Assembly (NCBI GenBank): GCA_038245785.1
Contig: JBBRSB010000001.1
Location: 361,175 to 425,174, forward strand
Source: Gloeobacterales cyanobacterium
Lineage (GTDB): Bacteria; Cyanobacteriota; Cyanobacteriia; Gloeobacterales; PMM-0068
Reading direction: 5' to 3'
DNA length: 64,000 nucleotides
The translations under genes were made by a program, and so were the position numbers. Positions 615 to 48,553 of this stretch are shown piece by piece; position 1 is the first letter of the stretch, and each line of letters begins with the position of its first letter. Below the pieces are notes generated by a model. That model did no database searches and was not told where the DNA came from. It saw only the letters and a program-made list of their open reading frames with translations.

Positions 615-1253
615 TTAACGGCGAATAGCGACAGGAGCATCCAACTTAAGATTGAGGGAGCGGTCAGGCCGGACTACTACAACCCTGGGAGCCGTCACGT
701 TGCCGACGATTACGCCAGCCGCCGCGCCTCCGAGTAAACCACCCAAAGAAACTCCACCCGTTACGGCGCCGAGAAGGGCACCACCAGCGGCACCAATGGC
801 AGCATCTCCTGCAATCGCTCCCCCTTCATACTCTCTAGGATCCTTTTCATCGGGAATCATATCGGAACTGGCGCGCAGAGAAGTGTACTGCCCGTTGATG
901 ACAACTCCATCCGCAAAGAATTTTAGGCCGCCAGGTACCGGAGCGAACCGTCCACGCACTTCTGTCCCCTTAGGGAAGACGACCCCGCCTCGGTTATCTA
1001 CTACATCTTGAGAGGTCACCAAGGTAGCATTGGCATCTTTACCTGGATCTAAGTATTGGGTTGAGTTGGCTGGAGCTGCTACAGGAACTGCTGCTCCTGC
1101 TTCCAAACGCGCAACTCCCACATTGAAGCGCCGATTGTTGACTTGAGATGCACTATTGTCTGGCTCCAAAACTGGATAGTCTGCTGCATACACCGACAGC
1201 AGAGGAGTTACAGCCATGGAAAGAGAGAGTGAAAGAACTAAGAAACGACGCAT
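615..1253 (-). CDS. Secreted conserved cyanobacterial protein with TrbI-like beta domain and C-terminal glycine zipper
   Basis: Signal peptide; VVFPKGTEVRGRF motif; GAAGGALLGAVTGG glycine zipper. Confidence 0.65.
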   Translation of the reverse strand: MRRFLVLSLSLSMAVTPLLSVYAADYPVLEPDNSASQVNNRRFNVGVARLEAGAAVPVAAPANSTQYLDPGKDANATLVTSQDVVDNRGGVVFPKGTEVRGRFAPVPGGLKFFADGVVINGQYTSLRASSDMIPDEKDPREYEGGAIAGDAAIGAAGGALLGAVTGGVSLGGLLGGAAAGVIVGNVTAPRVVVVRPDRSLNLKLDAPVAIRR

Positions 1254-1553
1254 GATGTCCTCCTGAGAACTAATAATTTTGGTGTCCGCACGGTGCCCCT
1301 CTAGCGTCCCCTCATTCGTTGAGCACCATTTAGGTCTATACCCGTCCGTTTTCTTCAGGGGGCAACTCTACCCTCATTATAGAACGGTAGATGTAGTTGG
1401 TTAATTCCCGAAATAGACTTTACTGGGTACTTTACGACGCTACATATGGATAGATAATCAGCGTACAACATAGTATTTGTCATGAAATACTAGCATACGC
1501 AAGAAAGTTTACGGGTTTACGACTGTTGTCTAGAGCACGGTTAGCTTCTAGAT

Positions 1554-2546
1554 CTAAAACTGCTTCAAGAAACGCTGGTCGCTATTGTACAAAAGCCGGA
1601 TGTCGTCGATGCCGTAGAGTAACATAGCTAATCGCTCAATGCCCAGACCTGCGGCAAAGCCTTGGACTTTCTCAGGATCATAACCAACGGCTTTGAAGAC
1701 ATTTGGGTCTACCATCCCAGCGCCTAGGACTTCTAACCAGCGACCCCCAGATTTAGATTCCCACCAGATATCTACTTCCATGGAAGGCTCGGTAAAGGGG
1801 AAAAAGCTTGGGCGAAAACGGGTAGGACGCTCTCCCAAAAGCTCTTCTATAAAAATAGTCAGAGTTCCTTTGAGGTCTGTAAAGGTAATATCCTCATCCA
1901 CGGCCAACACTTCTAATTGATGAAAGATCGGATAGTGGCTGGCATCTACGGCATCTCTGCGGAATACGCGCCCAGAGCAGATCATACGGAATGGAGGTTC
2001 ATTTTCTTCCATGTAGCGAATCTGAATGGAAGAGGTTTGGGTCCGCAGGAGCTGACCATTAGGCAGATAGAGCGTATCCTGCATGTCCCTGGCTGGGTGG
2101 TCTGCTGGTGTATTCAAAGCTTCAAAGTTGTAATATTCCGTCTCCACTTCCGGTCCTGTAGCAGGAGAGTAGCCCAAGCCCACAAAAATATCCGTGATCC
2201 GGTCAATGGTTCCGAGAATAGGATGGATACTGCCCTGGGGAATATAGACACCGGGCATCGTCACATCAAGGGCTTCTGCAGCCAGTTGGCTATTAAGTTT
2301 GGCCTCTTCTAAGGTCGCTTTGCGTTCCTGTAACTGCTCTTCGAATTCGTTTTTAATCTGGTTGGCCAAAGCGCCAATCACCGGACGCTCTTCTGCCGAA
2401 AGCTTGCCCATGCCTCCCAAGATCGCCGAAAGCTTCCCCTTTTTCCCCAGGTACTCAATACGTAGCGCTTCTAAAGCTTCCAAGTTAGGGGCTTCGGTAA
2501 GAGCAAGATGGGCTTCTTGGTGGAGTTGATTTAGTTGGTCTTTCAT
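1554..2546 (-). CDS. pheS: Phenylalanyl-tRNA synthetase alpha subunit
   Basis: Motifs [41 protein letters not shown]. Start set at MKDQL (2546) rather than the ORF-track 2582. Confidence 0.97.
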
Positions 2547-2630
2547 GACACATCGCAGTCTACGTTCCCTATTGTCTCTCAAGGCTGCGGTTTTTGGCCC
2601 GACTACCCCTTCAACGTTTTGGAAAATAGT

Positions 2631-3474
2631 TCACTTAAGCGCTGGAGACCCATTATCTGGAGCAATGCGCACATCCAGGATGTTAAAGATTTCGCTCTCC
2701 TTCGCTAGGCGTAGGGCTTGATAAAATTCTTCTCCTATTTTTATCACAAAGCCACGACCACCCGTTGTGACCTCAGCGTATCAACCTAGGGATACTTGAA
2801 TAAGCAGAGGTATAGTTAGTTGAAACAATCACAATGTAACTATAAGAAGAAGTTTCCAGTGACGTCTACCGTCCTGTATCCGTGCAACGGTGCTAGTAAT
2901 GCTTACCTCTGGTAGACGGCGCTATGGTCTACGACCCCTCGGTCCATCCTGACTCTAAGGCTCTGCCTATAGAGCGAGGCTTCCGCGCTTTTAGCTAATT
3001 GCTCTGCCAGCGCTACGACTTGTTCCTGTAAGCCAAAGCGGTGGACCTCCGCACAGGCCAGAATGACCGGAGCTTTAGCCTGATTGAGCATTTTCAGCGT
3101 CTCGGCAACCGATTCTGCCAAAGGGCCTGACTCAGTTCGCTTCACGGGCGGCGGCAGATGCTCAGCTTCCTCAATTTCTGCATAAACCATATCGCGGGGA
3201 ATTTCCAGATAGACCGGGCGCTTGAAGGTTATGGCATAGTCGATAGCCCGGTGGATCTTGCTTCTGCGGTTTTTGGGTTGTCGAGGATCTCTGCGTAGAG
3301 AGTAACTTCCTCGTACACGCGACGCTGGGTCTCGTGGGTCATCACAATTGGCTTGATCGGATTCTCCACCAGAGCATCGTAGAGCGTCAGGGCAAAATCA
3401 CCAGGGATGCCAAAGGCATGTTGCACACCTTGCTGATACAAGAGTTCAAAGATATGCGGTGCTAGTTGAGGCAT
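2631..3474 (-). pseudogene. Fragmented TPP-dependent alpha-keto acid (indolepyruvate/pyruvate) decarboxylase
   Basis: N-term GVQHAFGIPGDFAL...HE; middle KRPVYLEIPRDMV and PVILACAEVHRFGL; C-terminal fragment GGRGFVIKIGEEFYQALRLA...ILDVRIAPDNGSPALK* at 2631-2765. Large internal deletions and frameshifts. Confidence 0.8.
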
Positions 3475-3770
3475 TTTGGTTACCTTCCCTAATCACTATG
3501 TTGATTCCGTGTGCCTATTGAAGAGGATCATCAATTTTTTCTGGATGGACCACGAAATAGAGCTACACCTTCGATCATGAACGAATTAGACAAAAAATGC
3601 TGTTTTAGCAAAAAAGATACAAAATTTTGGGCCTAGTCTCTACCTTTGAAACCAAGATTCAATAGGAGATGAAGGAGTTAGAGGGAATGCTGAACCTGCC
3701 TCTAAATGCTTAAAATGCCAGCACTGTGCTAGCATGTCCATGGATGGTGCTTTTGATGCTGGAGGTCCTG

Positions 3771-36949: not shown

Positions 36950-38098
36950 ATGGTTAATGCTCCTAGAGCAGGCCAATACATACAACAGATAGAGGGCTAC
37001 AAAGCCTTTATACCTAATCCGCTGCCACCTGTACCTGAAATTATTATGGATCAGGAGATGTGGAATCTGCTATCTCAAGCAGATCGTGCGTTGGGTCGTC
37101 TAGACGGAGCAACCGATGCTCTACCAAATCCAGATCTATTTGTGTTTATGTATGTTCGGAAAGAAGCAGTTCTATCAAGTCAGATTGAGGGTACACAAGC
37201 ATCTTTGATAGATGTTCTAGAATTTGAATCTCAGGCTTTGCAACCAGATAATCCTCAGGATGTGGCTGAGGTTGTGAACTATGTCGCCGCGATTAATTAC
37301 GGTCTTGAACGCCTCAAAAACTTACCTGTATCTTTGCGATTAATTAGAGAAATTCATCAAAAGTTAATGGAAGGAGTGAGAGGTTCTGAACGCAATCCAG
37401 GGGAGTTTCGCCGTAGCCAGAATTGGATTGGTGCAGGAGGGTGTTCCTTAGCGGAGGCTACTTATGTTCCTCCCCCGCCACATGAAATGCTCCAATCTCT
37501 AGATAATTTGGAGAAATTTTTGCATAGTCTACAACCTATACCTACCTTAATTAAAGTTGGGTTAGCTCATGCTCAGTTTGAAACCATTCATCCTTTTCTC
37601 GATGGCAATGGAAGAACAGGTCGATTACTAATTACGTTTCTGTTGTGTGAGCAAAATATCCTACAGCGTCCTCTACTCTACATCTCTTACTATTTCAAGA
37701 AATATCGTACTGAATACTATGATCGCCTTCAGGCTGTGCGAGACAGCGGCAACTGGGAAGGTTGGCTGAAATTCTTTCTGCGCGGCGTTTACGAAGTTGC
37801 TCAAGAAGCTGCTGCTACTGCCCGTAAAATAGTCAACTTGAAAGAGGAACATCGTCAATTGGTACTTAATAATATGGGGCGTAGATCAGGTAATGCAGTC
37901 GCGTTGCTTGAGAGCCTTTATTTCAGGCCAATTGTTACGGTAGAACATGCTGAAGCAATTACAAATCTGTCGTATCCCAATGCAAACACCTTAATTAAGG
38001 ATCTTTGCGACATAGGTCTTCTGCAAGAAATTACCGGACAAAAACGCAATCGCGCATTCTCTTATGCTCCATACCTAGCTGTTTTCCGGGATACTTAG
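36950..38098 (+). CDS. Fic family protein (Fic_N + Fic + HTH)
   Basis: EAVLSSQIEG inhibitory motif; HAQFETIHPFLDGNGRTGR catalytic motif. Confidence 0.95.
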   Translation: MVNAPRAGQYIQQIEGYKAFIPNPLPPVPEIIMDQEMWNLLSQADRALGRLDGATDALPNPDLFVFMYVRKEAVLSSQIEGTQASLIDVLEFESQALQPDNPQDVAEVVNYVAAINYGLERLKNLPVSLRLIREIHQKLMEGVRGSERNPGEFRRSQNWIGAGGCSLAEATYVPPPPHEMLQSLDNLEKFLHSLQPIPTLIKVGLAHAQFETIHPFLDGNGRTGRLLITFLLCEQNILQRPLLYISYYFKKYRTEYYDRLQAVRDSGNWEGWLKFFLRGVYEVAQEAAATARKIVNLKEEHRQLVLNNMGRRSGNAVALLESLYFRPIVTVEHAEAITNLSYPNANTLIKDLCDIGLLQEITGQKRNRAFSYAPYLAVFRDT

Positions 38099-38202
38099 CA
38101 ACAATTCAACCTGACAATGTGACCTGTCTAAACAGCGATACTTAGGGCTTCCGGATTGCCAAGTTTTTCACACATAACATTTTCTTCATTGACCTGCAGC
38201 AT

Positions 38203-40809
38203 TTACTTAATAAAGAACCGGAGGAAAAATATCACCAGCAACACTATACCAAAAATTACAAAACCAGGCTTCTTAGCAATTCCAATTGCTAATTTCAAAA
38301 GATCTGCAATGATTTTCAGCTTCTTATCTGGAAGACCCGTCAACCTCTTTAAGACAAAGTCCATTGTAGATTGAGAAGATGAATCCTGTTTTAATGCCTC
38401 TGGCAAGATACCAGTAATGACTTGTCTATAGTAAGACCACTCATCTACAAAAGGCTTATAGTAGTCTCTTTTGAAAGAAAAGTATTGAATCCATTTGAAG
38501 AAAATGGTTAGCCAAGGAACGATTTGTTTTACATAAAAATCTTGAGAGGTTTTAGTAGGTAGAGCCTCTTGCTCAACATCTTGAGAAGATAAATCTGCAT
38601 CAAGATTCCTCAAAATTCTATCTCGCTCTTGCTCTTCATCTAGCAGATTTGCAAAAGCAACTAAGGAACGTGTTGCAATTTGCTGAGCTACAGTATTGCG
38701 GGAATTTTTTACCCAGCCATACATCGCTCCTTCAATTCGAGTTGGAGGGCGCTGCTCATTTATCCAGATCTGGCAGCGATAGAAAGCTTTTTTCTTATTA
38801 GGCTCCCAATAAATCAAATAATCTCCACCCAATAGATCAACACGTTGCTCAAAATAGATTTCAGTTAAAACTCTGACGATATCCTCACGTTCGTTTTCCT
38901 TTACTTCAGCAACTAAAGATTGAAGCTGAGGTTCAATTGCATCAAAATGTAGACGTGCCTGACGACCAATAGCGAACAGGATCGCTTCACGCACAAAAGG
39001 GTGTTTCTCTTTTTGGAGAATTGTATGTAAACGCTCAAAAATATCTCCAGGAGTTAGTTTACCAATATTCTGTACACACTCGATCTCTCCATAGGTTCGC
39101 ACAACAGTTGCAAGGAGGCTTTCCCGTGAGTTTATCTTCGATATGTCTATATATTCAGGAAGATTCCGTAGCTCTTCATCCGTCCAATTTTCAAGAATTT
39201 TTACTGTTCCTTCTGGGTCTCTTTTGTAAGCACCTGCTAAACTTATACCAACTGCTCTATTGAATTTAATGATTGAGGTTTCTGGACTAGAAGAACTTTC
39301 TTGTTGTTGAATTATACTGTGCAGCCATGTACTTAGTTCCCTTAAATGGAATTGTAATACAAGCGGAAGAGTATTATTGAGAAATTTATTTCTAACCACA
39401 TTACTTTTATCTTTAGCTAACTTTTTCAATAAATTATGCAGTTCCTCAGATAGTCCCTTTGAGCCTTCTGTCTCAACATAACACGCAGCATAGCCAACAG
39501 TAAGTGCTACTGTACCTTTTATGTAATCTTCTGCCTTTGAACTTTCGCCATTCTCTTCATTACGCTCTTTCAAGATAGCCTCAACTTGTTCAACCCTCGA
39601 CTGAGGCAGCTCTAACCATGAATGAAGCATGTCGAAAAGTTGTTCATCTTGGTCAGAATTTCGCCATAGTGCCATTGCATAAGCTGCAGTGGATTGAACG
39701 GAAGTATTTTTATCTGCAGCGAGTTGGAGTAAAGTTGTTGCAATTGAGTTTTTTGAAGTCGAGCCAATATCACTTATCGTCTTAGCAATTGCATAACGAA
39801 TCTCTCCACACTTTATCTCATCACCATATAGCTCTGGATTCGCCAAGCGTTCTACTACAGAATTCCTAACAATATTTACCATTACGGGCAATGCTGATAA
39901 AATTTGCCTACGATCACTATCCCAAGCCACTTTAAATAAGGTTCGACGTTCCTCACCGGAAGAAGAACGAATTTCAATTTTAGTTCCTTGGTCTTTTGTC
40001 TCAGTGAAGTTGAAAAAATGAGAAAGGTTCTCTAAATCGCAGTAGTCGAGTGCACGAAGCGAAGCATCCCGTCGTTGCCAAACCTTCTCAACGATTTCTT
40101 CTAAAGCAGCAAAAAATTGATCTTCAAATAGCCCATCAAAAAAACTTAACCCTAGTACAAGTAGTCTTTCACGGGGTTCCAGTTCTTGAAGATACCACTT
40201 GCGAAGAGAGTCCTCTTCAGAGAACGTATTAATTAGCTGTTCAGAGTCGGAAACGCTTTCGCGTGATAATGGATACCAGAATTTATTTTTACTTTCGGGT
40301 GGTTGTCTCCAAGCAGTAAAAGGTGTATTTGTACTTATAACAACATAGTGCTTTCCTGAAACTGCGGCTTTCCGAATTCGGTCCAGATCGTAACCAACAT
40401 TTTGAGGTGCAACCTGATTTAGGATGAAAACTGTGGCTTTTTTTGTATTTTGAAGCTCTATATCGATAATTTGTGGCTCAGGACTGCGACGCCACTCTCT
40501 TGCGATTATTTCACTACCACTGGACCTTAATTGTTCAATTAAACGAGCTGCAATATGTCTAGCTAGAGAGTCTTTATTAACCTCAGAGCTTCCTTCTAAA
40601 ACTAAAAACCTGCGCTCCTTAATCATTTTGAGAAGATCAGACATAATTTTAGGGCTTTTAAAATAGGGAGATTTATATTGCTCAAGAGATAGCTCAAAGA
40701 AGTCAGATTTCTGCTGCAGTATAGTTTGATTAAGGTCTCCCACAAAATTAAAATTACCACCAAATTCATTATCTTTGAAGACGGTCTGCTGCATATTTTC
40801 TTGACTCAT
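38203..40809 (-). CDS. NLR-like protein: N-terminal putative amyloid motif, degenerate P-loop region, HEAT/ARM-like helices, C-terminal TM helix
   Basis: Residues 7-28 match the C-terminal repeats of the upstream ORF; FLVLEGSSEVNKDSLA is a degenerate Walker A; LAADKNTSVQSTAAYAMA, LAKDKSNVVRN and EKHPFVREAILFAIG are HEAT-like; ends PGFVIFGIVLLVIFFLRFFIK. Confidence 0.75.
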   Translation of the reverse strand: MSQENMQQTVFKDNEFGGNFNFVGDLNQTILQQKSDFFELSLEQYKSPYFKSPKIMSDLLKMIKERRFLVLEGSSEVNKDSLARHIAARLIEQLRSSGSEIIAREWRRSPEPQIIDIELQNTKKATVFILNQVAPQNVGYDLDRIRKAAVSGKHYVVISTNTPFTAWRQPPESKNKFWYPLSRESVSDSEQLINTFSEEDSLRKWYLQELEPRERLLVLGLSFFDGLFEDQFFAALEEIVEKVWQRRDASLRALDYCDLENLSHFFNFTETKDQGTKIEIRSSSGEERRTLFKVAWDSDRRQILSALPVMVNIVRNSVVERLANPELYGDEIKCGEIRYAIAKTISDIGSTSKNSIATTLLQLAADKNTSVQSTAAYAMALWRNSDQDEQLFDMLHSWLELPQSRVEQVEAILKERNEENGESSKAEDYIKGTVALTVGYAACYVETEGSKGLSEELHNLLKKLAKDKSNVVRNKFLNNTLPLVLQFHLRELSTWLHSIIQQQESSSSPETSIIKFNRAVGISLAGAYKRDPEGTVKILENWTDEELRNLPEYIDISKINSRESLLATVVRTYGEIECVQNIGKLTPGDIFERLHTILQKEKHPFVREAILFAIGRQARLHFDAIEPQLQSLVAEVKENEREDIVRVLTEIYFEQRVDLLGGDYLIYWEPNKKKAFYRCQIWINEQRPPTRIEGAMYGWVKNSRNTVAQQIATRSLVAFANLLDEEQERDRILRNLDADLSSQDVEQEALPTKTSQDFYVKQIVPWLTIFFKWIQYFSFKRDYYKPFVDEWSYYRQVITGILPEALKQDSSSQSTMDFVLKRLTGLPDKKLKIIADLLKLAIGIAKKPGFVIFGIVLLVIFFLRFFIK

Positions 40810-40814
40810 ATTCT

Positions 40815-41279
40815 TTAGCTTTCCTGAGTTAAGTTTCCACTAAACTTCACGTCCCCACCAATTTCTAGATCAGAAAACATTACTTGCTCGATAGAACCAC
40901 CTTTACTTGCCTTTTGAGTCATATCTCCTTTTAGTTCAAGGGTGTTTGCCTTGATACCGCTCATCATTATCTGGCGGGTGACGCCTATCTGCTCAAGTTG
41001 CTTCACTAACTCCTTAAGTTGTGTGGCAAAAATTTCATCATCATTCATTTGTGTTATTAGCTCTGCTTCTACTATTGCAATGTTGGATTCTGTTGGCTGT
41101 TTTTCCGTCCGTGTTAATAAACCTTCCGTGCCCGATTCTTTAAATCTTTGATGAATAGTAGTTGCCAATTGAGCTATTTTGTCAGATGCACTTTTCCCTA
41201 TTGCTTTTCCTCCTTCTTTTAGAGCCTCACCAAAAATGAGCGTTGCGATTGTGCTTGCAATTGCTGTTATAGTTTCCAT
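40815..41279 (-). CDS. Bell/HeLo-like helical effector with two C-terminal putative amyloid pseudo-repeats
   Basis: Hydrophobic N-terminal helix METITAIASTIATLIFGEALKEGGKAIG; ~100-aa helical domain ending DEIFATQLKELVKQL; repeats at residues 102-122 and 131-152; AAGGAG RBS. Confidence 0.75.
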   Translation of the reverse strand: METITAIASTIATLIFGEALKEGGKAIGKSASDKIAQLATTIHQRFKESGTEGLLTRTEKQPTESNIAIVEAELITQMNDDEIFATQLKELVKQLEQIGVTRQIMMSGIKANTLELKGDMTQKASKGGSIEQVMFSDLEIGGDVKFSGNLTQES

Positions 41280-41617
41280 AGAAAACTCCTTTTTCTTTCT
41301 AAAATCTGCCAGATTGGGCGTATCCTTGCTCAGGAGCTTGCGATCGACTTTCTTGGTCTAATTACCTGCGTAGCGTGATAGGCAGACAAATTCTCCGTAT
41401 ATTACCACTTAAGGGGAGTCGGTAGACAACCTTGATATAAATCCCCCTGAATAATAAAGGATTTGCAGCCTATGTTTGCTATGCCATTCAGCTCAAACAC
41501 CGCTTATGCCCGACCGGAAGAGCACTATGTGCGGGAGTGAATACTGTTTTATGGCAGATGCCATTTCTCGGAGAGCACTACGATAGCGTAAAGCTTGCAA
41601 AGCACTCTATAGCGAAA

Positions 41618-41648
41618 AGCCACCCGAAGGTATACTCTCGGGTGGCTC
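41618..41648. terminator. GC-rich hairpin, possible terminator
   Basis: AGCCACCCGA-N10-TCGGGTGGCT with an A-run on the left (U-run on the minus strand), downstream of the minus-strand GNAT gene. Confidence 0.45.
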
Positions 41649-41858
41649 AACTTTAGACATAGCCCAGGAGTATCTCATCCTGGAACGCAGGAGTTAACCC
41701 GCAGGTATAGACACACTATACCCATACCCTAAAAGACTGCACAAGGTCGCAACCCATAATCATCCATAATTCGACCAGTCTAGCGATATGGGGACTTTTA
41801 GGGTTGCCAAATTTTTACGTATAACGCTCCGCTTGAGCGTTATTCTTCACCATAAATC

Positions 41859-42458
41859 TCACTGGACATCAGGGGCTGAACTACCTAATAAATCAATCAA
41901 AGGCTTTAGATCGAGGTACATCGTACGATAGGGCGTAGTTGGAGGGAGACTTTCATGGGAATCGGCAAAGTCAAAGCCCATCTTGGCATAGAAACCTGAT
42001 GCATCGTAGGGTGGCTCTGTGTCTGGATCATAGAGTGCGTCAACAGTCATAAACCTGACTCCAACGATCGGCTCAATTTCGGTTATGACATACTCAATGG
42101 CCCACTCAACTAGATGGCGACCTGCTCCTTTCGCCCGTCGATCGACCGCCAGTAGACCAATTTTGATGGCTGGGAATGTGCGGTATTTCACACCCTCTTC
42201 TAGCAAAATCTGATCTTCTACCTGTAACTTATCCGCTAAGAGTGTAATGTACCCAGCGAGGGAGTCACCAACTCGCATCACCCAACAGTGACAAATGCTG
42301 GCATCAATTTCGCGTTGAATGCGCCCCTGCTTCCAGTAGGTTACAAATTCTCCCCGTAAACAGCGAAACCCCTGACCTAGATTAGAAAGTTCAGGGGTCA
42401 AGTGCTCTACTTCGACTTGGGCAAAGTCAATTCCTTCAAATTTACTTTGGCTGGGCAT
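41859..42458 (-). CDS. GNAT acetyltransferase toxin (TacT/AtaT-like)
   Basis: GYITL, FPAIKIGLLAVDRRAKGAGRHLV, GVRFMTVDAL, GFYAKMGF. Start re-set to MPSQSK (42458). Confidence 0.8.
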   Translation of the reverse strand: MPSQSKFEGIDFAQVEVEHLTPELSNLGQGFRCLRGEFVTYWKQGRIQREIDASICHCWVMRVGDSLAGYITLLADKLQVEDQILLEEGVKYRTFPAIKIGLLAVDRRAKGAGRHLVEWAIEYVITEIEPIVGVRFMTVDALYDPDTEPPYDASGFYAKMGFDFADSHESLPPTTPYRTMYLDLKPLIDLLGSSAPDVQ

Positions 42459-42615
42459 TATTCTGTAACTGTCGAAGACGACGGGCCGCAATACGGCTGG
42501 CGAGGGCAAGTGCCCGCTCATTTGTGACGTACTGACCTGACTCAATCGCCTCTATCAACCTTTTAGCAGCATCACCTGTAACTGGTTTTGATTCAGTGTG
42601 GATAGGGTACTTCAT
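42442..42615 (-). CDS. Small (57-aa) putative antitoxin, absent from the ORF track
   Basis: MKYPIHTESKPVTGDAAKRLIEAIESGQYVTNERALALASRIAARRLRQLQNNAQPK*; its end overlaps the GNAT start. Confidence 0.6.
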   Translation of the reverse strand: MKYPIHTESKPVTGDAAKRLIEAIESGQYVTNERALALASRIAARRLRQLQNNAQPK

Positions 42616-43084: not shown

Positions 43085-43312
43085 TTACTCAAGCAGTCGC
43101 CTCACTTGAGCTAAAGCTTCATCTCCTGGAATTGCTTCCACAGAACCACTTCGGATTTCATCACGTCGTCTCTTTGCCTCAGTTGTCCAAACTGCCTGAA
43201 TCGCAGGGTTAGTATCGAATTCTAAGCTTTCTACTAGCTTGTCTGCCAAAAGCGCTCTCGATGCACTGGGCAGAGATAAAAGCTCCTCTGTCAGTTTTTC
43301 AATTGACTGCAT
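43085..43312 (-). CDS. Putative addiction-module antitoxin (TIGR02574-like)
   Basis: LSLPSASRALLADKLVESL...W..EAKRR...G...IPGDE. The cognate toxin is absent except for an overlapping ATG. Confidence 0.8.
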   Translation of the reverse strand: MQSIEKLTEELLSLPSASRALLADKLVESLEFDTNPAIQAVWTTEAKRRRDEIRSGSVEAIPGDEALAQVRRLLE

Positions 43313-43353
43313 AGCTTCTCACCAACTGCCGAATACTGCTCACAGTCTAACAG

Positions 43354-43602
43354 AGACAACACTGCTTCCTTCCGTACGTAACTGTATAGAAGTTCTTCCG
43401 GTCCTGGGAGTAGTCGGCCAATCCCATCAAGCCGACCCAATGCTAACCCCGCAGCTTCGAGTCGCCGCTGGAGTTCCGAATCTACTCGAATTGGTGGAAT
43501 GGGAGGCAAGGGCGCAGGAATAAAAGCTGTGTAGGAAGTCTCACCCATACTTTGCTGCACCCACCGCCCTGCCCGCTCTGACCCCTTAGTAAAGGATGGC
43601 AT
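43354..43602 (-). pseudogene. 5' fragment of a second Fic gene
   Basis: RAGRWVQQ...AFIPAPLPP...ALGRLDG...YVRKEAVLS, homologous to 36950..38098; truncated before the catalytic motif. Confidence 0.8.
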
Positions 43603-48478: not shown

Positions 48479-48553
48479 TGGTGGCAATGGCTGGATTTGA
48501 ACCAGCGACAAAGCGGGTATGAACCGCTTGCTCTACCACTGAGCTACATTGCC
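48479..48553 (-). tRNA. tRNA-Met(CAT), elongator type
   Basis: GGCAATG TA GCTCAGTGGTAGAGC A AGCGG TTCATAC CCGCT TTGTC GCTGG TTCAAAT CCAGC CATTGCC ACCA; full cloverleaf, G1-C72 paired, encoded CCA. Confidence 0.93.

What the first reader, a model, noticed from the sequence alone, without database searches (positions are those of the whole stretch)
38203..41279. Candidate amyloid (prion-like) signalling cell-death/defence system: effector and receptor share a 22-aa motif
Seen: two co-oriented genes 5 bp apart. The 154-aa ORF ends in EQVMFSDLEIGGDVKFSGNLTQ (res 131-152, nt 40889-40824). The 868-aa ORF starts with QQTVFKDNEFGGNFNFVGDLNQ (res 7-28, nt 40791-40726). They align without gaps at 10/22 identity (Q,F,D,E,GG,F,G,L,Q), keep the alternating hydrophobic/polar pattern, and swap N/D at two positions. 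Established: a motif shared between an effector C-terminus and the N-terminus of an adjacently encoded NLR is the hallmark of fungal HET-s/NWD2 signalling and of bacterial BASS motif/Bell-domain pairs. Inference: the activated receptor templates amyloid folding of the small protein, which unleashes a membrane-damaging helical domain (abortive infection). I do not recognise this motif or this receptor type as a described pair, so it may be a new family.
Basis: partly seen in the sequence, partly recalled or inferred. Interest (0 to 1): 0.93.

Follow-up and report, generated by a model that had tools for sequence, protein, structure and literature searches.

The report
Amyloid-motif death switch, unusual membrane receptor
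Two adjacent cyanobacterial genes look like a known kind of suicide switch, in which a sensor passes a short self-propagating fold to a small membrane-attacking protein, but here the sensor is an undescribed, membrane-anchored relative of innate-immune receptors that has lost its usual nucleotide-binding motifs.

Summary
The two ORFs, the 5-bp gap and the gapless 10/22 motif match are as described. No shuffle of 1000 reaches the match score, z 8.8.

The amyloid-signalling reading is supported by comparison. Across 24 homologous pairs, cognate motif similarity beats every one of 10000 random pairings. The receptor family carries several unrelated N-terminal motifs. Each matches the C-terminus of its neighbour, which may be a Bell-like, PNP_UDP, TIR/SEFIR or CHAT protein.

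The motif and effector are not new. Relatives' C-termini appear letter for letter in the published Bell-side BASS6 set.

The receptor does look new:
- No NB-ARC or NACHT match.
- A confident model with a STAND fold plus HEAT solenoid.
- Walker A and B eroded in all sequences checked.
- A C-terminal membrane helix.
- Relatives with SH3b, ARC6-IMS or Ig domains beyond that helix, and VanY neighbours.

The family has 447 clusters at E<=1e-30. I found no paper describing it.

Verdict: a new variant of a known kind. Amyloid formation, toxicity and the trigger are untested.

The parts
40815..41279 (-). Effector gene, 154 aa (P0001): Bell-like helical domain followed by two BASS6-type pseudo-repeats
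   Evidence: ORF and translation. 61 homologous clusters, mostly Nostocales. Relatives' C-termini are in the published Bell-side BASS6 set.
41286..41291 (-). AAGGAG ribosome-binding site 6 nt upstream of the effector ATG
   Evidence: Read directly from the sequence.
40989..41279 (-). Effector residues 1-97: five-helix domain. Helix 1 (residues 2-16, METITAIASTIATLIF) is hydrophobic with Glu at position 2
   Evidence: AlphaFold2 model, pLDDT 81.7, helices 2-16, 28-49, 52-60, 64-80, 82-97. Family consensus starts MEPIT, like the 'MEPIS' motif described for Bell and Hell domains.
40914..40976 (-). Pseudo-repeat r1, effector residues 102-122 (RQIMMSGIKANTLELKGDMTQ)
   Evidence: Strands 102-107, 114-116, 120-123 in the model. 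r1 versus r2 gapped score 35 against 16.8 +/- 3.7 in shuffles. Weak across the family: 10 of 57 members reach <=2 of 200 shuffles.
40824..40889 (-). Pseudo-repeat r2, effector residues 131-152 (EQVMFSDLEIGGDVKFSGNLTQ): the copy that matches the receptor
   Evidence: Strands 131-136, 144-146, 150-153. Score 56 against receptor residues 1-36, 0 of 1000 shuffles reaching it.
38203..40809 (-). Receptor gene, 868 aa (P0002)
   Evidence: ORF and translation. 112 homologous clusters. 447 representative clusters at E<=1e-30.
40726..40791 (-). Receptor N-terminal BASS6-type motif, residues 7-28 (QQTVFKDNEFGGNFNFVGDLNQ), single copy
   Evidence: Residues 1-33 are predicted disordered, pLDDT 31-34. Matches effector r2.
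39970..40701 (-). Receptor residues 37-280: STAND-like nucleotide-binding-domain fold with a helical and a hairpin subdomain
   Evidence: Model pLDDT 89.2, pTM 0.87. VIA-align: 6mfv_A Z 11.7, rmsd 3.8, 264 aligned, model 38-438; Apaf-1 3sfz Z 9.9, 317 aligned; MalT 8bob_C Z 9.4; EfAvs5 9jap_A Z 10.7. Foldseek top hits are SAMD9 and AVAST5.
40567..40596 (-). Deviant Walker A, residues 72-81 (EGSSEVNKDS; family consensus GGxxx[VI]DK)
   Evidence: In 100 aligned homologues the position before Lys is D76/N9 and never G. Lys79 is kept in 88. Ser/Thr after Lys in 26. 0 of 89 further representatives have GxxxxGK[ST].
40414..40434 (-). Deviant Walker B, residues 126-132 (TVFILNQ)
   Evidence: Position 131 is T49/P29/S10/N5 and not Asp among the six commonest residues. 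Position 132 is Q41/E22/D16.
38839..39957 (-). Receptor residues 285-657: alpha-solenoid (HEAT-type), the presumed sensor
   Evidence: Pfam HEAT_2 1.3e-5 at 336-396. HEAT_2 in 28 of 47 homologues. Helices in the model. PP2A-A and SF3B1 solenoid matches.
38209..38265 (-). C-terminal transmembrane helix, residues 849-867 (GFVIFGIVLLVIFFLRFFI); one residue follows it, so it is a tail anchor
   Evidence: Kyte-Doolittle 19-mer mean 2.82. An equivalent helix occurs in 20 of 24 homologues checked and in 72 of 89 further representatives. In long homologues SH3b, ARC6-IMS or cadherin domains follow it.
38001..42000 (.). Low-G+C stretch holding the pair (0.39-0.41, against 0.45-0.53 in most other 2-kb bins of the window)
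   Evidence: Composition profile.

Best explanation
This is a two-gene regulated cell-death module of the amyloid-signalling type. The receptor (868 aa) sits in a membrane by a C-terminal tail anchor, with its bulk in the cytoplasm. That bulk is a HEAT-type solenoid (presumed sensor), a STAND-fold oligomerisation module whose Walker A and B motifs are eroded, and a disordered N-terminal 22-residue BASS6-type motif. On an unknown cue the receptor is inferred to self-associate. This brings several N-terminal motifs together so that they fold cooperatively into a cross-beta nucleus. The nucleus templates the two pseudo-repeats at the C-terminus of the 154-aa effector, as NWD2 does for HET-S. Folding of that tail frees the hydrophobic helix 1 of the Bell-like bundle, which attacks the membrane and kills the cell. 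Shown here: gene arrangement, motif sharing beyond chance, co-variation of the motif between partners across the family, modular exchange of effector domains, the predicted folds, the eroded P-loop and the membrane helix. Inferred: amyloid formation, templating, membrane damage, lack of NTP dependence, and the cue (phage infection, or envelope/peptidoglycan damage).
For: (1) The motif match is far beyond chance. (2) In 24 effector/receptor pairs the cognate scores sum to 1224, against 659 +/- 52 for random pairings, with 0 of 10000 reaching it; 12 of 24 cognates rank first. (3) The same receptor core carries unrelated N-terminal motifs, each matching its upstream neighbour. Examples are GDSSTFNVGNTTQN in P0049/P0085 at 21/29 identity, YGNARFYGNF in L020 and VAGRD in L022. 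(4) These neighbours have different death or immune domains: PNP_UDP_1 (L006, L018, L022), SEFIR/TIR_2 (L013), CHAT (L020) and Bell-like domains. These are the domains reported for BASS-linked and fungal amyloid-signalling effectors. (5) The effector family is in the published Bell-side BASS6 set. Elsewhere it pairs with NB-ARC NLRs bearing the same motif class, so the HEAT receptor takes the place of an NLR. (6) Effector model: five helices with a hydrophobic helix 1, then two three-strand repeats. This matches the description of Bell models as four helices cupping helix 1. (7) The receptor has a STAND fold. (8) A non-NLR receptor using a BASS motif to fire a Bell-type effector in phage defence has been shown for Bab/Agp.
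Against: No experiment exists for this pair. By the section headings and abstract of Dyrka 2020, only BASS1 and BASS3 were tested for prion and fibril formation, so amyloid formation by BASS6 is itself an inference. Within the close BASS6 clade the cognate partner is often not the best-scoring one: ranks 5, 13, 17 and 18 of 24 occur. Fine-scale co-variation is therefore not shown; the signal comes from differences between motif classes. 9 of 24 receptor loci have no motif-sharing gene within 4 kb, one of them at a contig end. The eroded Walker motifs leave it open how, or whether, the module oligomerises. The effector's helical domain has no significant structural match (best Z 6.3). The r1/r2 repeat is weak by sequence in most family members.
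Confidence: 0.68

Rival explanations
1. The shared motif is a homotypic docking tag, not an amyloid. It would hold effector and receptor in a stoichiometric complex by beta-strand pairing, in the manner of the effector-associated domains (EADs) of Kaur et al. Activation would be by release or allostery, without a self-propagating fold.
For: EADs show the same genomic logic: one copy on a core component, one on the effector, and adjacent copies most alike. BASS6 itself has no experimental amyloid data in what I read. AlphaFold2 folds the effector's two repeats as an ordinary intramolecular sheet.
Against: The motif is about 22 residues, rich in Q, N and G, free of proline, and predicted disordered on the receptor. 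This fits the composition described for BASS motifs. EADs are small folded domains, mostly helical. The effector's two repeats against the receptor's one parallel HET-s/NWD2. Tested BASS families do form prions and fibrils, and BASS11 does so in vivo.
Confidence: 0.15
2. The mechanism is the same, but the module is not antiviral. It would be an envelope or peptidoglycan surveillance, or developmental cell-death, switch. The receptor family would report damage or remodelling of the cell wall to a death effector.
For: At least 27 of 112 receptor homologues carry SH3b (16) or ARC6-like IMS (11) domains, which lie beyond the membrane helix. In 6 loci such domains are on a separate downstream ORF. 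In 5 of the 14 relatives' loci compared (plus the window), a conserved gene of about 250-280 aa follows; Pfam calls the 3 that were scanned VanY D-Ala-D-Ala carboxypeptidases. The family is concentrated in filamentous or aggregate-forming cyanobacteria.
Against: The window's own receptor ends one residue after the membrane helix and has no VanY, SH3b or IMS neighbour. Its neighbours are Fic, GNAT and addiction-module genes in a low-G+C patch, a defence-island-like setting. Bab/Agp shows an antiphage role for this signalling logic.
Confidence: 0.25
3. The receptor is a decayed, non-functional NLR whose nucleotide-binding site has rotted. The pair would be a relic.
For: Walker A and Walker B are non-canonical.
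Against: The same deviations are shared across the whole family: none of the 100 aligned homologues has Gly before the Lys, and 0 of 89 further representatives are canonical. The reading frame stays open, with about 60 nearly invariant positions. Lys79 is kept in 88 of 100. This looks like a conserved derived state, not decay. Inactive STAND modules are known working parts of other conflict systems.
Confidence: 0.04
4. The similarity is chance between two low-complexity termini.
For: Both segments are rich in G, N, D and Q.
Against: 0 of 1000 composition-preserving shuffles reach the score. Adjacency and matching recur with unrelated motifs.
Confidence: 0.01

Closest known systems
Bell-domain / BASS / NLR gene pairs of filamentous bacteria (Dyrka et al. 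2020, bioRxiv 10.1101/2020.01.06.895854), specifically BASS6
   Same: A small protein of about 150 aa with a hydrophobic N-terminal helix and an acidic residue at position 2. A C-terminal motif of about 22 aa is repeated at the N-terminus of the next, collinear gene <=10 bp away. The host is a cyanobacterium. Relatives of this effector are in the BASS6 Bell-side set.
   Different: Those pairs were defined by an NB-ARC or NACHT receptor with TPR or WD repeats. Here Pfam finds neither: 0 of 47 receptor homologues at E<=0.01. The repeats are HEAT, the Walker motifs are eroded and the protein is membrane-anchored.
HET-S / NWD2 of Podospora anserina
   Same: The effector has two pseudo-repeats and the receptor one. 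The effector is a helical membrane-targeting domain with an N-terminal helix. The genes are adjacent. This comparison rests and on general knowledge.
   Different: No sequence relation to the HRAM motif was tested. The receptor is not a NACHT-WD protein. The host is a bacterium.
Bab / Agp (BASS11) antiphage system of E. coli (Ibarlosa et al. 2024, bioRxiv 10.1101/2024.11.07.622273)
   Same: A Bell-type effector fired through a shared BASS motif by a receptor that is not an NLR, in a defence-island setting.
   Different: Agp is TPR-GreA/B-C-PIN and soluble. The receptor here is STAND-fold plus HEAT plus a membrane anchor. The motif family differs (BASS6, not BASS11), and the effector is longer, with two repeats.
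Inactive STAND modules iSTAND and iSTAND2 of MoxR-vWA ternary conflict systems (Kaur et al. 2020 PMC7159879; 2021 PMC8195603)
   Same: A STAND module with eroded NTP-binding motifs is used as the presumed sensing component and coupled to effectors through a short shared N-terminal element. These systems are enriched in multicellular cyanobacteria.
   Different: No MoxR or vWA gene lies next to this pair. The coupling element is a BASS motif, not a folded EAD. Homology to iSTAND could not be tested because no profile was available.

Membership tests
Bell-domain effector with BASS motif (Dyrka 2020) | Helical domain of about 100 aa whose N-terminal helix is hydrophobic, with an acidic residue at position 2 or 3 ('MEPIS'-type start) | tested here: met
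   M-E-T-I-T-A-I-A-S-T-I-A-T-L-I-F; E2 is nearly invariant and the consensus is MEPIT. Five helices in the model. The feature is as described.
Bell-domain effector with BASS motif (Dyrka 2020) | Sequence relatives are counted as Bell homologues with a BASS6 motif by the authors | tested here: met
   C06_s065 and C06_s054 equal the r2 and r1 regions of P0036, which is 52% identical to P0001. C06_s064 equals the C-terminus of the L012 effector. That 'C06' means the Bell-side BASS6 set is my reading of the Materials text.
Bell-domain effector with BASS motif (Dyrka 2020) | Structural likeness of the helical domain to solved Bell, HeLo or 4HB domains | tested here: inconclusive
   Foldseek: nothing at E<=0.001. 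VIA-align wide: best Z 6.3. ZAR1 CC (Z 5.0) and MLKL (Z 4.7) appear only at background level.
BASS/NLR amyloid-signalling pair | The motif is shared by the effector C-terminus and the N-terminus of an adjacent collinear gene | tested here: met
   5-bp gap, score 56, 0 of 1000 shuffles reaching it. The same holds in 14 of 24 receptor loci.
BASS/NLR amyloid-signalling pair | The receptor has an NB-ARC or NACHT domain with TPR or WD repeats | tested here: not met
   No NB-ARC or NACHT match for P0002 at E<=1, nor in 47 homologues at E<=0.01. The repeats are HEAT.
BASS/NLR amyloid-signalling pair | The motif forms amyloid or prion and the receptor side seeds the effector side | not testable with these tools
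   Needs ThT, electron microscopy, foci and cross-seeding assays.
STAND NTPase (NLR-like) | Fold of nucleotide-binding domain, helical domain and winged helix, followed by a repeat sensor | tested here: met
   On a predicted model (pLDDT 89.2): 6mfv_A Z 11.7, rmsd 3.8, 264 aligned over model 38-438. Also Apaf-1, MalT and Avs5, and SAMD9 and AVAST5 by Foldseek. ESM Atlas neighbours are nSTAND5 and nSTAND3, 0.91-0.92.
STAND NTPase (NLR-like) | Walker A GxxxxGK[ST] and Walker B hhhhD[DE] | tested here: not met
   EGSSEVNKDS and TVFILNQ. Family-wide the pattern is [DEN]K, with no Asp among the commonest residues at the Walker B position.
iSTAND / iSTAND2 ternary systems (Kaur et al.) | An adjacent MoxR AAA+ and vWA gene pair | tested here: not met
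   The neighbours are Fic (convergent), GNAT and small addiction-module ORFs. No gene beyond the pair is shared between the window region and any of the 14 relatives' loci compared.
iSTAND / iSTAND2 ternary systems (Kaur et al.) | Sequence homology to the iSTAND profiles | not testable with these tools
   No iSTAND profile or sequence was at hand. Pfam gave only a weak nSTAND3 match (E 0.038).
HET-s/NWD2-type repeat arrangement | Two pseudo-repeats on the effector, one on the receptor | tested here: inconclusive
   For P0001 r1 versus r2 is significant (0 of 200 shuffles), and the model repeats the strand pattern. Across the family only 10 of 57 members reach <=2 of 200. The published set lists both r1- and r2-type fragments of one protein.

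The most novel reading that the evidence does not exclude
The receptor family would be a transmembrane counterpart of NLRs that works without nucleotide. It has a pseudo-NTPase STAND module and a HEAT solenoid on the cytoplasmic face, anchored by a single helix. In longer relatives this helix is continued by peptidoglycan-binding or periplasmic domains (SH3b, ARC6-IMS, Ig/cadherin), with VanY as a neighbour. These proteins would carry an envelope or cell-wall signal across the membrane and convert it, by amyloid nucleation at the N-terminus, into activation of interchangeable death effectors (Bell, PNP_UDP, TIR, CHAT). The window's tail-anchored form would be the minimal version, sensing a membrane-proximal event such as phage entry.
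Probability: 0.3. Interest if true: 0.8.

Novelty: new variant of a known kind. Interest (0 to 1): 0.62.

Why it matters
Bacterial amyloid signalling has so far been described for NB-ARC and NACHT receptors and for one soluble TPR-GreA/B-C-PIN receptor. This finding adds a sizeable unnamed protein family: 447 clusters at 50% identity with E<=1e-30. It uses the same N-terminal motif logic with at least four effector classes. It lacks a working P-loop by sequence, and it is membrane-anchored.

If the mechanism holds, three things follow:
- Nucleotide-driven switching would not be required to nucleate the signalling amyloid.
- Amyloid signalling could be launched from a membrane, possibly in response to cell-wall cues.
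- A compact two-gene system would be available to test these points.

It also shows that BASS motifs and Bell effectors move between receptor classes as modules.

Tried and rejected
- **Family libraries.** Pfam, NCBIfam and PADLOC scans of both proteins gave nothing above the curated cut-offs. A Pfam scan of 59 effector homologues at E<=1 gave only scattered noise and no consistent family.
- **Solved structures by sequence.** Profile searches with both families gave 0 hits at E<=1 for the receptor and E<=10 for the effector.
- **Effector fold.** Foldseek against the PDB and VIA-align against 48161 chains gave no match above background.
- **Complex prediction.** Effector 96-154 with receptor 1-40 scored 0.15 against a mark of 0.32; the tool's verdict was 'no answer' and the controls were not run (collected).
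- **Expression.** No RNA holder was listed for the locus. The only holder is a DNA run that may be the source sample.
- **Earlier scan notes.** Three look-ups, by place, sequence and words, returned nothing.
- **Fused forms.** I looked for effector domains fused directly to this receptor. None of the 112 homologues carries PNP_UDP, TIR or CHAT in the precomputed Pfam column. In the rows of the best 150 representatives whose best stretch covers the profile's start, it begins within about 50 residues of the protein's N-terminus; rows whose best stretch lies further into the profile were not judged.
- **Partners for orphan receptors.** A search within +/-4 kb of the 9 orphan receptor loci, on both strands and at both termini, found only background scores of <=38.
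- **Second copy.** There is none in the window's own genome.
- **Motif classes by regex.** This was crude: 44 of 112 were left unclassified, many visibly BASS6-like. I use it only to say that several classes exist.
- **Promoter and terminator scan.** It gave no more sites than shuffles.
- **** timed out and was rerun.


Full report
**1. Observation**

The window holds two co-oriented minus-strand ORFs. One is a 154-aa ORF at 40815..41279 and the other an 868-aa ORF at 38203..40809. Five bases separate the TAA of the first from the ATG of the second. An AAGGAG lies 6 nt upstream of the first ATG.

They align without gaps at 10 of 22 identities.

The best ungapped segment between the two termini scores 56 (BLOSUM62, 10/24 identical). 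None of 1000 shuffles of the receptor's first 40 residues reaches it (mean 20.0, sd 4.1, max 42). The receptor is also the best match among the N-termini of all 48 window ORFs of 150 aa or more; the next best scores 31.

**2. The effector**

61 clusters of homologues were found, nearly all about 152 aa and mostly from Nostocales. The family consensus begins MEPIT, followed by a hydrophobic stretch and an invariant E-A-x-K-E-G-G-K.

An AlphaFold2 model built on 59 sequences has mean pLDDT 81.7. It shows:
- five helices (2-16, 28-49, 52-60, 64-80, 82-97);
- then two runs of three short strands (102-107, 114-116, 120-123 and 131-136, 144-146, 150-153).

The two runs correspond to two pseudo-repeats, r1 (residues 102-122) and r2 (residues 131-152). 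In this protein r1 and r2 align with one gap at score 35, against 16.8 +/- 3.7 in shuffles (0 of 200). Across the family the repeat is weak by sequence: only 10 of 57 members have <=2 of 200 shuffles reaching their score. The receptor motif resembles r2 (score 56, 0 of 1000), not r1 (score 19, 341 of 1000).

No Pfam, NCBIfam or PADLOC family covers the protein. No solved structure matches it by sequence or convincingly by fold.

**3. The motif and effector are already described**

The supplementary data of Dyrka et al. 2021 (PMC8086366) hold the Bell-side training fragments for each BASS family. I searched this supplement by string and read passages of Materials. Three entries under 'C06' match my set letter for letter:
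- C06_s065 is identical to the C-terminus of P0036.
- C06_s054 is identical to the r1 region of the same protein.
- C06_s064 is identical to the C-terminus of the effector in locus L012.

P0036 is 52% identical to the window's effector. [quoted passage not shown]

So the effector belongs to the Bell-domain family and the motif to BASS6, as defined in Dyrka et al. 2020. For that preprint I read the outline and sections 6, 7 and 9.

By that paper's headings, prion and fibril tests were done for BASS1 and BASS3. I saw no test of BASS6.

**4. The receptor**

*Sequence searches.* Pfam finds only HEAT repeats below the cut-off and a weak nSTAND3 match (E 0.038) over residues 54-93. Among 47 diverse homologues none matches NB-ARC or NACHT at E<=0.01. 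28 match HEAT_2 and one matches nSTAND3. A profile of the family finds no solved structure by sequence.

*Predicted structure.* An AlphaFold2 model on 100 sequences is confident, with pLDDT 89.2 and pTM 0.87. Its parts are:
- residues 1-33 disordered;
- 37-181 an alpha/beta domain with six strands;
- 199-280 helices and a hairpin;
- 285-657 an alpha-solenoid;
- further helices up to residue 867.

*Fold matches.* Foldseek ranks SAMD9, AVAST5/Avs5 and Avs4, all STAND proteins, among HEAT proteins. VIA-align gives the matches below.

| Chain | Protein | Z | Aligned residues | Notes |
|---|---|---|---|---|
| 6mfv_A | archaeal STAND protein with TPR sensor | 11.7 | 264 | rmsd 3.8; model 38-438 |
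| 9jap_A | EfAvs5 | 10.7 | 145 | |
| 3sfz | Apaf-1 | 9.9 | 317 | model 38-424 |
| 8bob_C | MalT | 9.4 | 280 | |

AAA+ domains also match residues 34-195. ESM Atlas neighbours of residues 35-330 are nSTAND5 and nSTAND3 clusters, at 0.91-0.92. The receptor is therefore NLR-like in architecture: a STAND module followed by a repeat sensor.

*Eroded nucleotide-binding motifs.* The strand-loop-helix at residues 68-81 reads FLVLEGSSEVNKDS. In 100 aligned homologues:
- the Gly before the Lys is replaced by Asp in 76 and Asn in 9, and is never Gly;
- Lys79 is kept in 88;
- Ser or Thr after the Lys occurs in only 26;
- at the Walker B position after strand 126-130, the residue is Thr 49, Pro 29, Ser 10 or Asn 5, with no Asp among the six commonest residues;
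- the next position is Gln 41, Glu 22, Asp 16.

Among 121 further representatives, 89 had a recognisable segment. None of these is canonical, and the residue before Lys is D in 53, E in 16 and N in 8. The other 32 were N-terminally truncated or missed by my regular expression.

This is a conserved derived state, not decay. It resembles in kind the inactive STAND modules (iSTAND, iSTAND2) described by Kaur et al., of whose papers I read passages. No MoxR or vWA genes are nearby. Homology to iSTAND could not be tested.

*Membrane anchor.* Residues 849-867 form a strongly hydrophobic helix (Kyte-Doolittle mean 2.82), with one residue after it. 20 of 24 homologues checked have an equivalent helix; the four without include the 655-aa forms. 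72 of 89 further representatives have one beyond residue 700.

In longer homologues the helix lies at about 830-910 and is followed by further domains. SH3b is present in 16 and ARC6-like IMS in 11 of 112, and some also carry cadherin or Ig domains.

In several loci these domains sit on a separate downstream ORF. Pfam confirms this in L009, L012, L013, L018, L019 and L020. A conserved gene of about 250-280 aa follows in 5 of the 14 relatives' loci compared (plus the window): L004, L010, L012, L019 and L020. Pfam calls the three that were scanned (L004, L012, L019) VanY D-Ala-D-Ala carboxypeptidases.

The window's receptor is the short, tail-anchored form. It has neither extension nor VanY; a convergent Fic gene follows it.

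**5. Do adjacency and motif sharing hold elsewhere?**

*Receptor loci.* 24 receptor loci came from one-genome-per-species contigs. I examined all of them.

| Outcome | Loci | Count |
|---|---|---|
| Upstream co-oriented gene whose C-terminus matches the receptor N-terminus | L001-L004, L006, L009, L010, L012, L013, L018-L020, L022, L024 | 14 |
| Degenerate: both genes truncated | L007 | 1 |
| No such gene within 4 kb on either strand | L005, L008, L011 (contig end), L014-L017, L021, L023 | 9 |

Most of the non-cyanobacterial receptors are in the last group. These are a Methanotrichaceae archaeon, two Longimicrobium, a Myxococcaceae bacterium and Thiohalocapsa.

*Partner domains.* The partners are not all Bell-like. 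Pfam gives PNP_UDP_1 for L006, L018 and L022 (E 1e-27 to 2e-29), SEFIR/TIR_2 for L013, and CHAT for L020.

*Motif classes.* The motif differs in kind between loci, and each time it is matched by the neighbour. Examples:

| Pair | Identity |
|---|---|
| P0049/P0085 (GDSSTFNVGNTTQN class) | 21/29 |
| L006 | 17/27 |
| L010 | 18/31 |
| L018 | 14/22 |
| L020 | 12/24 |
| L024 | 12/24 |

*Test of cognate pairing.* I used 24 pairs: the window, 14 loci, and 9 pairs of database proteins. I matched those 9 only by equal contig length and source, so they are probable rather than certain pairs. Cognate scores sum to 1224 against 659 +/- 52 for random pairings (0 of 10000). 12 of 24 cognates rank first.

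The signal comes from differences between motif classes. Inside the close BASS6 clade, cognates rank anywhere from 1 to 18. This is partly because some receptor motifs are shorter and my scoring allowed no gaps.

*Sample of cyanobacterial genomes.* The effector profile hits 32 of 401 genomes and the receptor profile 6 of 401, counting the window's own genome. The five other genomes with the receptor:
- Two have an adjacent co-oriented motif-sharing effector (G002, G154).
- One has the effector on the opposite strand, about 300 bp away (G266, L057).
- One has a co-oriented upstream partner that carries the motif at its own N-terminus (G242, L059).
- One has an adjacent Bell-like gene, but the receptor's N-terminus is unclear (G056, L058).

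*The same effector family with other receptors.* In L030 to L033 the downstream gene is an NB-ARC-type NLR with an intact GMGGVGKT and the same motif class. Pfam gives NB-ARC at 1.1e-17 for L030. In L028 and L029 the downstream gene is a membrane protein, and Pfam finds TPR repeats in the L028 protein. The HEAT receptor thus occupies the position of an NLR in an otherwise standard module.

*Fused forms.* I saw no form with an effector domain fused to this receptor.

**6. Mechanism**

By analogy with HET-S/NWD2 and with Bab/Agp, I propose the following sequence:
1. A cue causes the membrane-anchored receptor to self-associate through its STAND-fold module.
2. The clustered N-terminal motifs nucleate a cross-beta fold.
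3. This fold templates r1-r2 of the effector.
4. Helix 1 of the Bell bundle is released and damages the membrane.

The eroded P-loop, with an acidic residue where the phosphate-binding glycine should be, suggests that assembly does not depend on NTP. The anchor suggests a membrane-proximal cue. The relatives' SH3b, IMS and VanY context suggests cell-wall sensing for the long forms.

None of these steps is shown. What is shown is the architecture, the co-variation, the modularity and the predicted folds.

The local setting fits a mobile defence-type islet but proves nothing. It is a low-G+C patch (0.39-0.41) holding Fic, GNAT, an addiction-module antitoxin and a Fic fragment.

**7. Novelty**

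I searched the literature three times and read in the following papers: Dyrka 2020, Dyrka 2021, Ibarlosa 2024, Kaur 2020 and 2021, the 2025 ASM deep-learning paper and a 2026 STAND survey. For most of these I read passages only.

No held paper combines 'amyloid signaling motif' with 'HEAT repeat'. Dyrka 2020 does not mention HEAT or transmembrane receptors. The receptor's hallmark 'DFFEP' linker is absent from the stored part of the 2021 supplement, though that file was cut when stored.

The bioRxiv supplements, notably Table S2 of Dyrka 2020, were not readable and could list such pairs. Subscription papers are also outside the library.

On this basis the effector and motif are known. The receptor class, with 447 clusters at E<=1e-30, appears undescribed as an amyloid-signalling partner. 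A non-NLR receptor has a precedent in Agp, so this is a new variant of a known kind.

Noticed in passing
window 36950..38098 (+) and 43291..43602 (-): A complete Fic/DOC gene (Fic_N plus Fic) lies convergent to the receptor. A 103-aa ORF with only the start of Fic_N lies 5 kb away on the other strand. Between them are the pair, a GNAT-like ORF (41859..42545), several 57-86-aa ORFs, and one with an 'Unstab_antitox' addiction-module domain (43085..43312). Together with the low G+C this looks like a small variable islet between housekeeping genes: SepF and ProC on one side, TilS on the other.
   Followed up: partly
L004 6948-7754, L012 8790-9641, L019 8788-9528 (also L010, L020): In 5 of the 14 relatives' loci compared (plus the window), a conserved gene of about 250-280 aa follows the receptor and its SH3b/IMS-domain ORF. 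Pfam calls the three scanned VanY D-Ala-D-Ala carboxypeptidases. This hints at a link between the receptor family and peptidoglycan.
   Followed up: partly
L028 1992-3452 and L029 from 2037: The same Bell/BASS6 effector family is followed here by a protein with the N-terminal motif and then predicted membrane segments. Pfam finds TPR repeats in the L028 protein, and no NTPase domain within the part held. This may be yet another non-NLR partner type.
   Followed up: partly
L059 3851-4213 (-) next to the receptor at 1084-3657 (-): The upstream partner is 120 aa and carries the shared motif (GGNYNE.I.GNYIQG) at its N-terminus rather than its C-terminus, followed by a helical region.
   Followed up: no
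L057 703-1200 (-) and 1495-5754 (+): A Bell/BASS6 effector and a long-form receptor are divergently oriented about 300 bp apart, and the motif is still shared.
   Followed up: no
L060 1504-3471 and 3443-4762; also L009, L010, L024: The receptor is split into two overlapping ORFs of about 655 aa and about 220-870 aa. This explains the 655-aa 'short forms' that lack a membrane helix.
   Followed up: partly
L039 and L043: A conserved 143-aa ORF is inserted 3 bp after the Bell-type effector. It precedes an NB-ARC-type NLR that carries the motif.
   Followed up: no
L007 3297-3863 and from 3860: A PNP_UDP-like effector truncated to 188 aa abuts a receptor lacking its first ~200 residues. This is probably a decayed copy of the L006-type pair.
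   Followed up: no
window 48479..48553 (-): A tRNA-Met gene, the only tRNA in the window, lies 7 kb from the pair.
   Followed up: no
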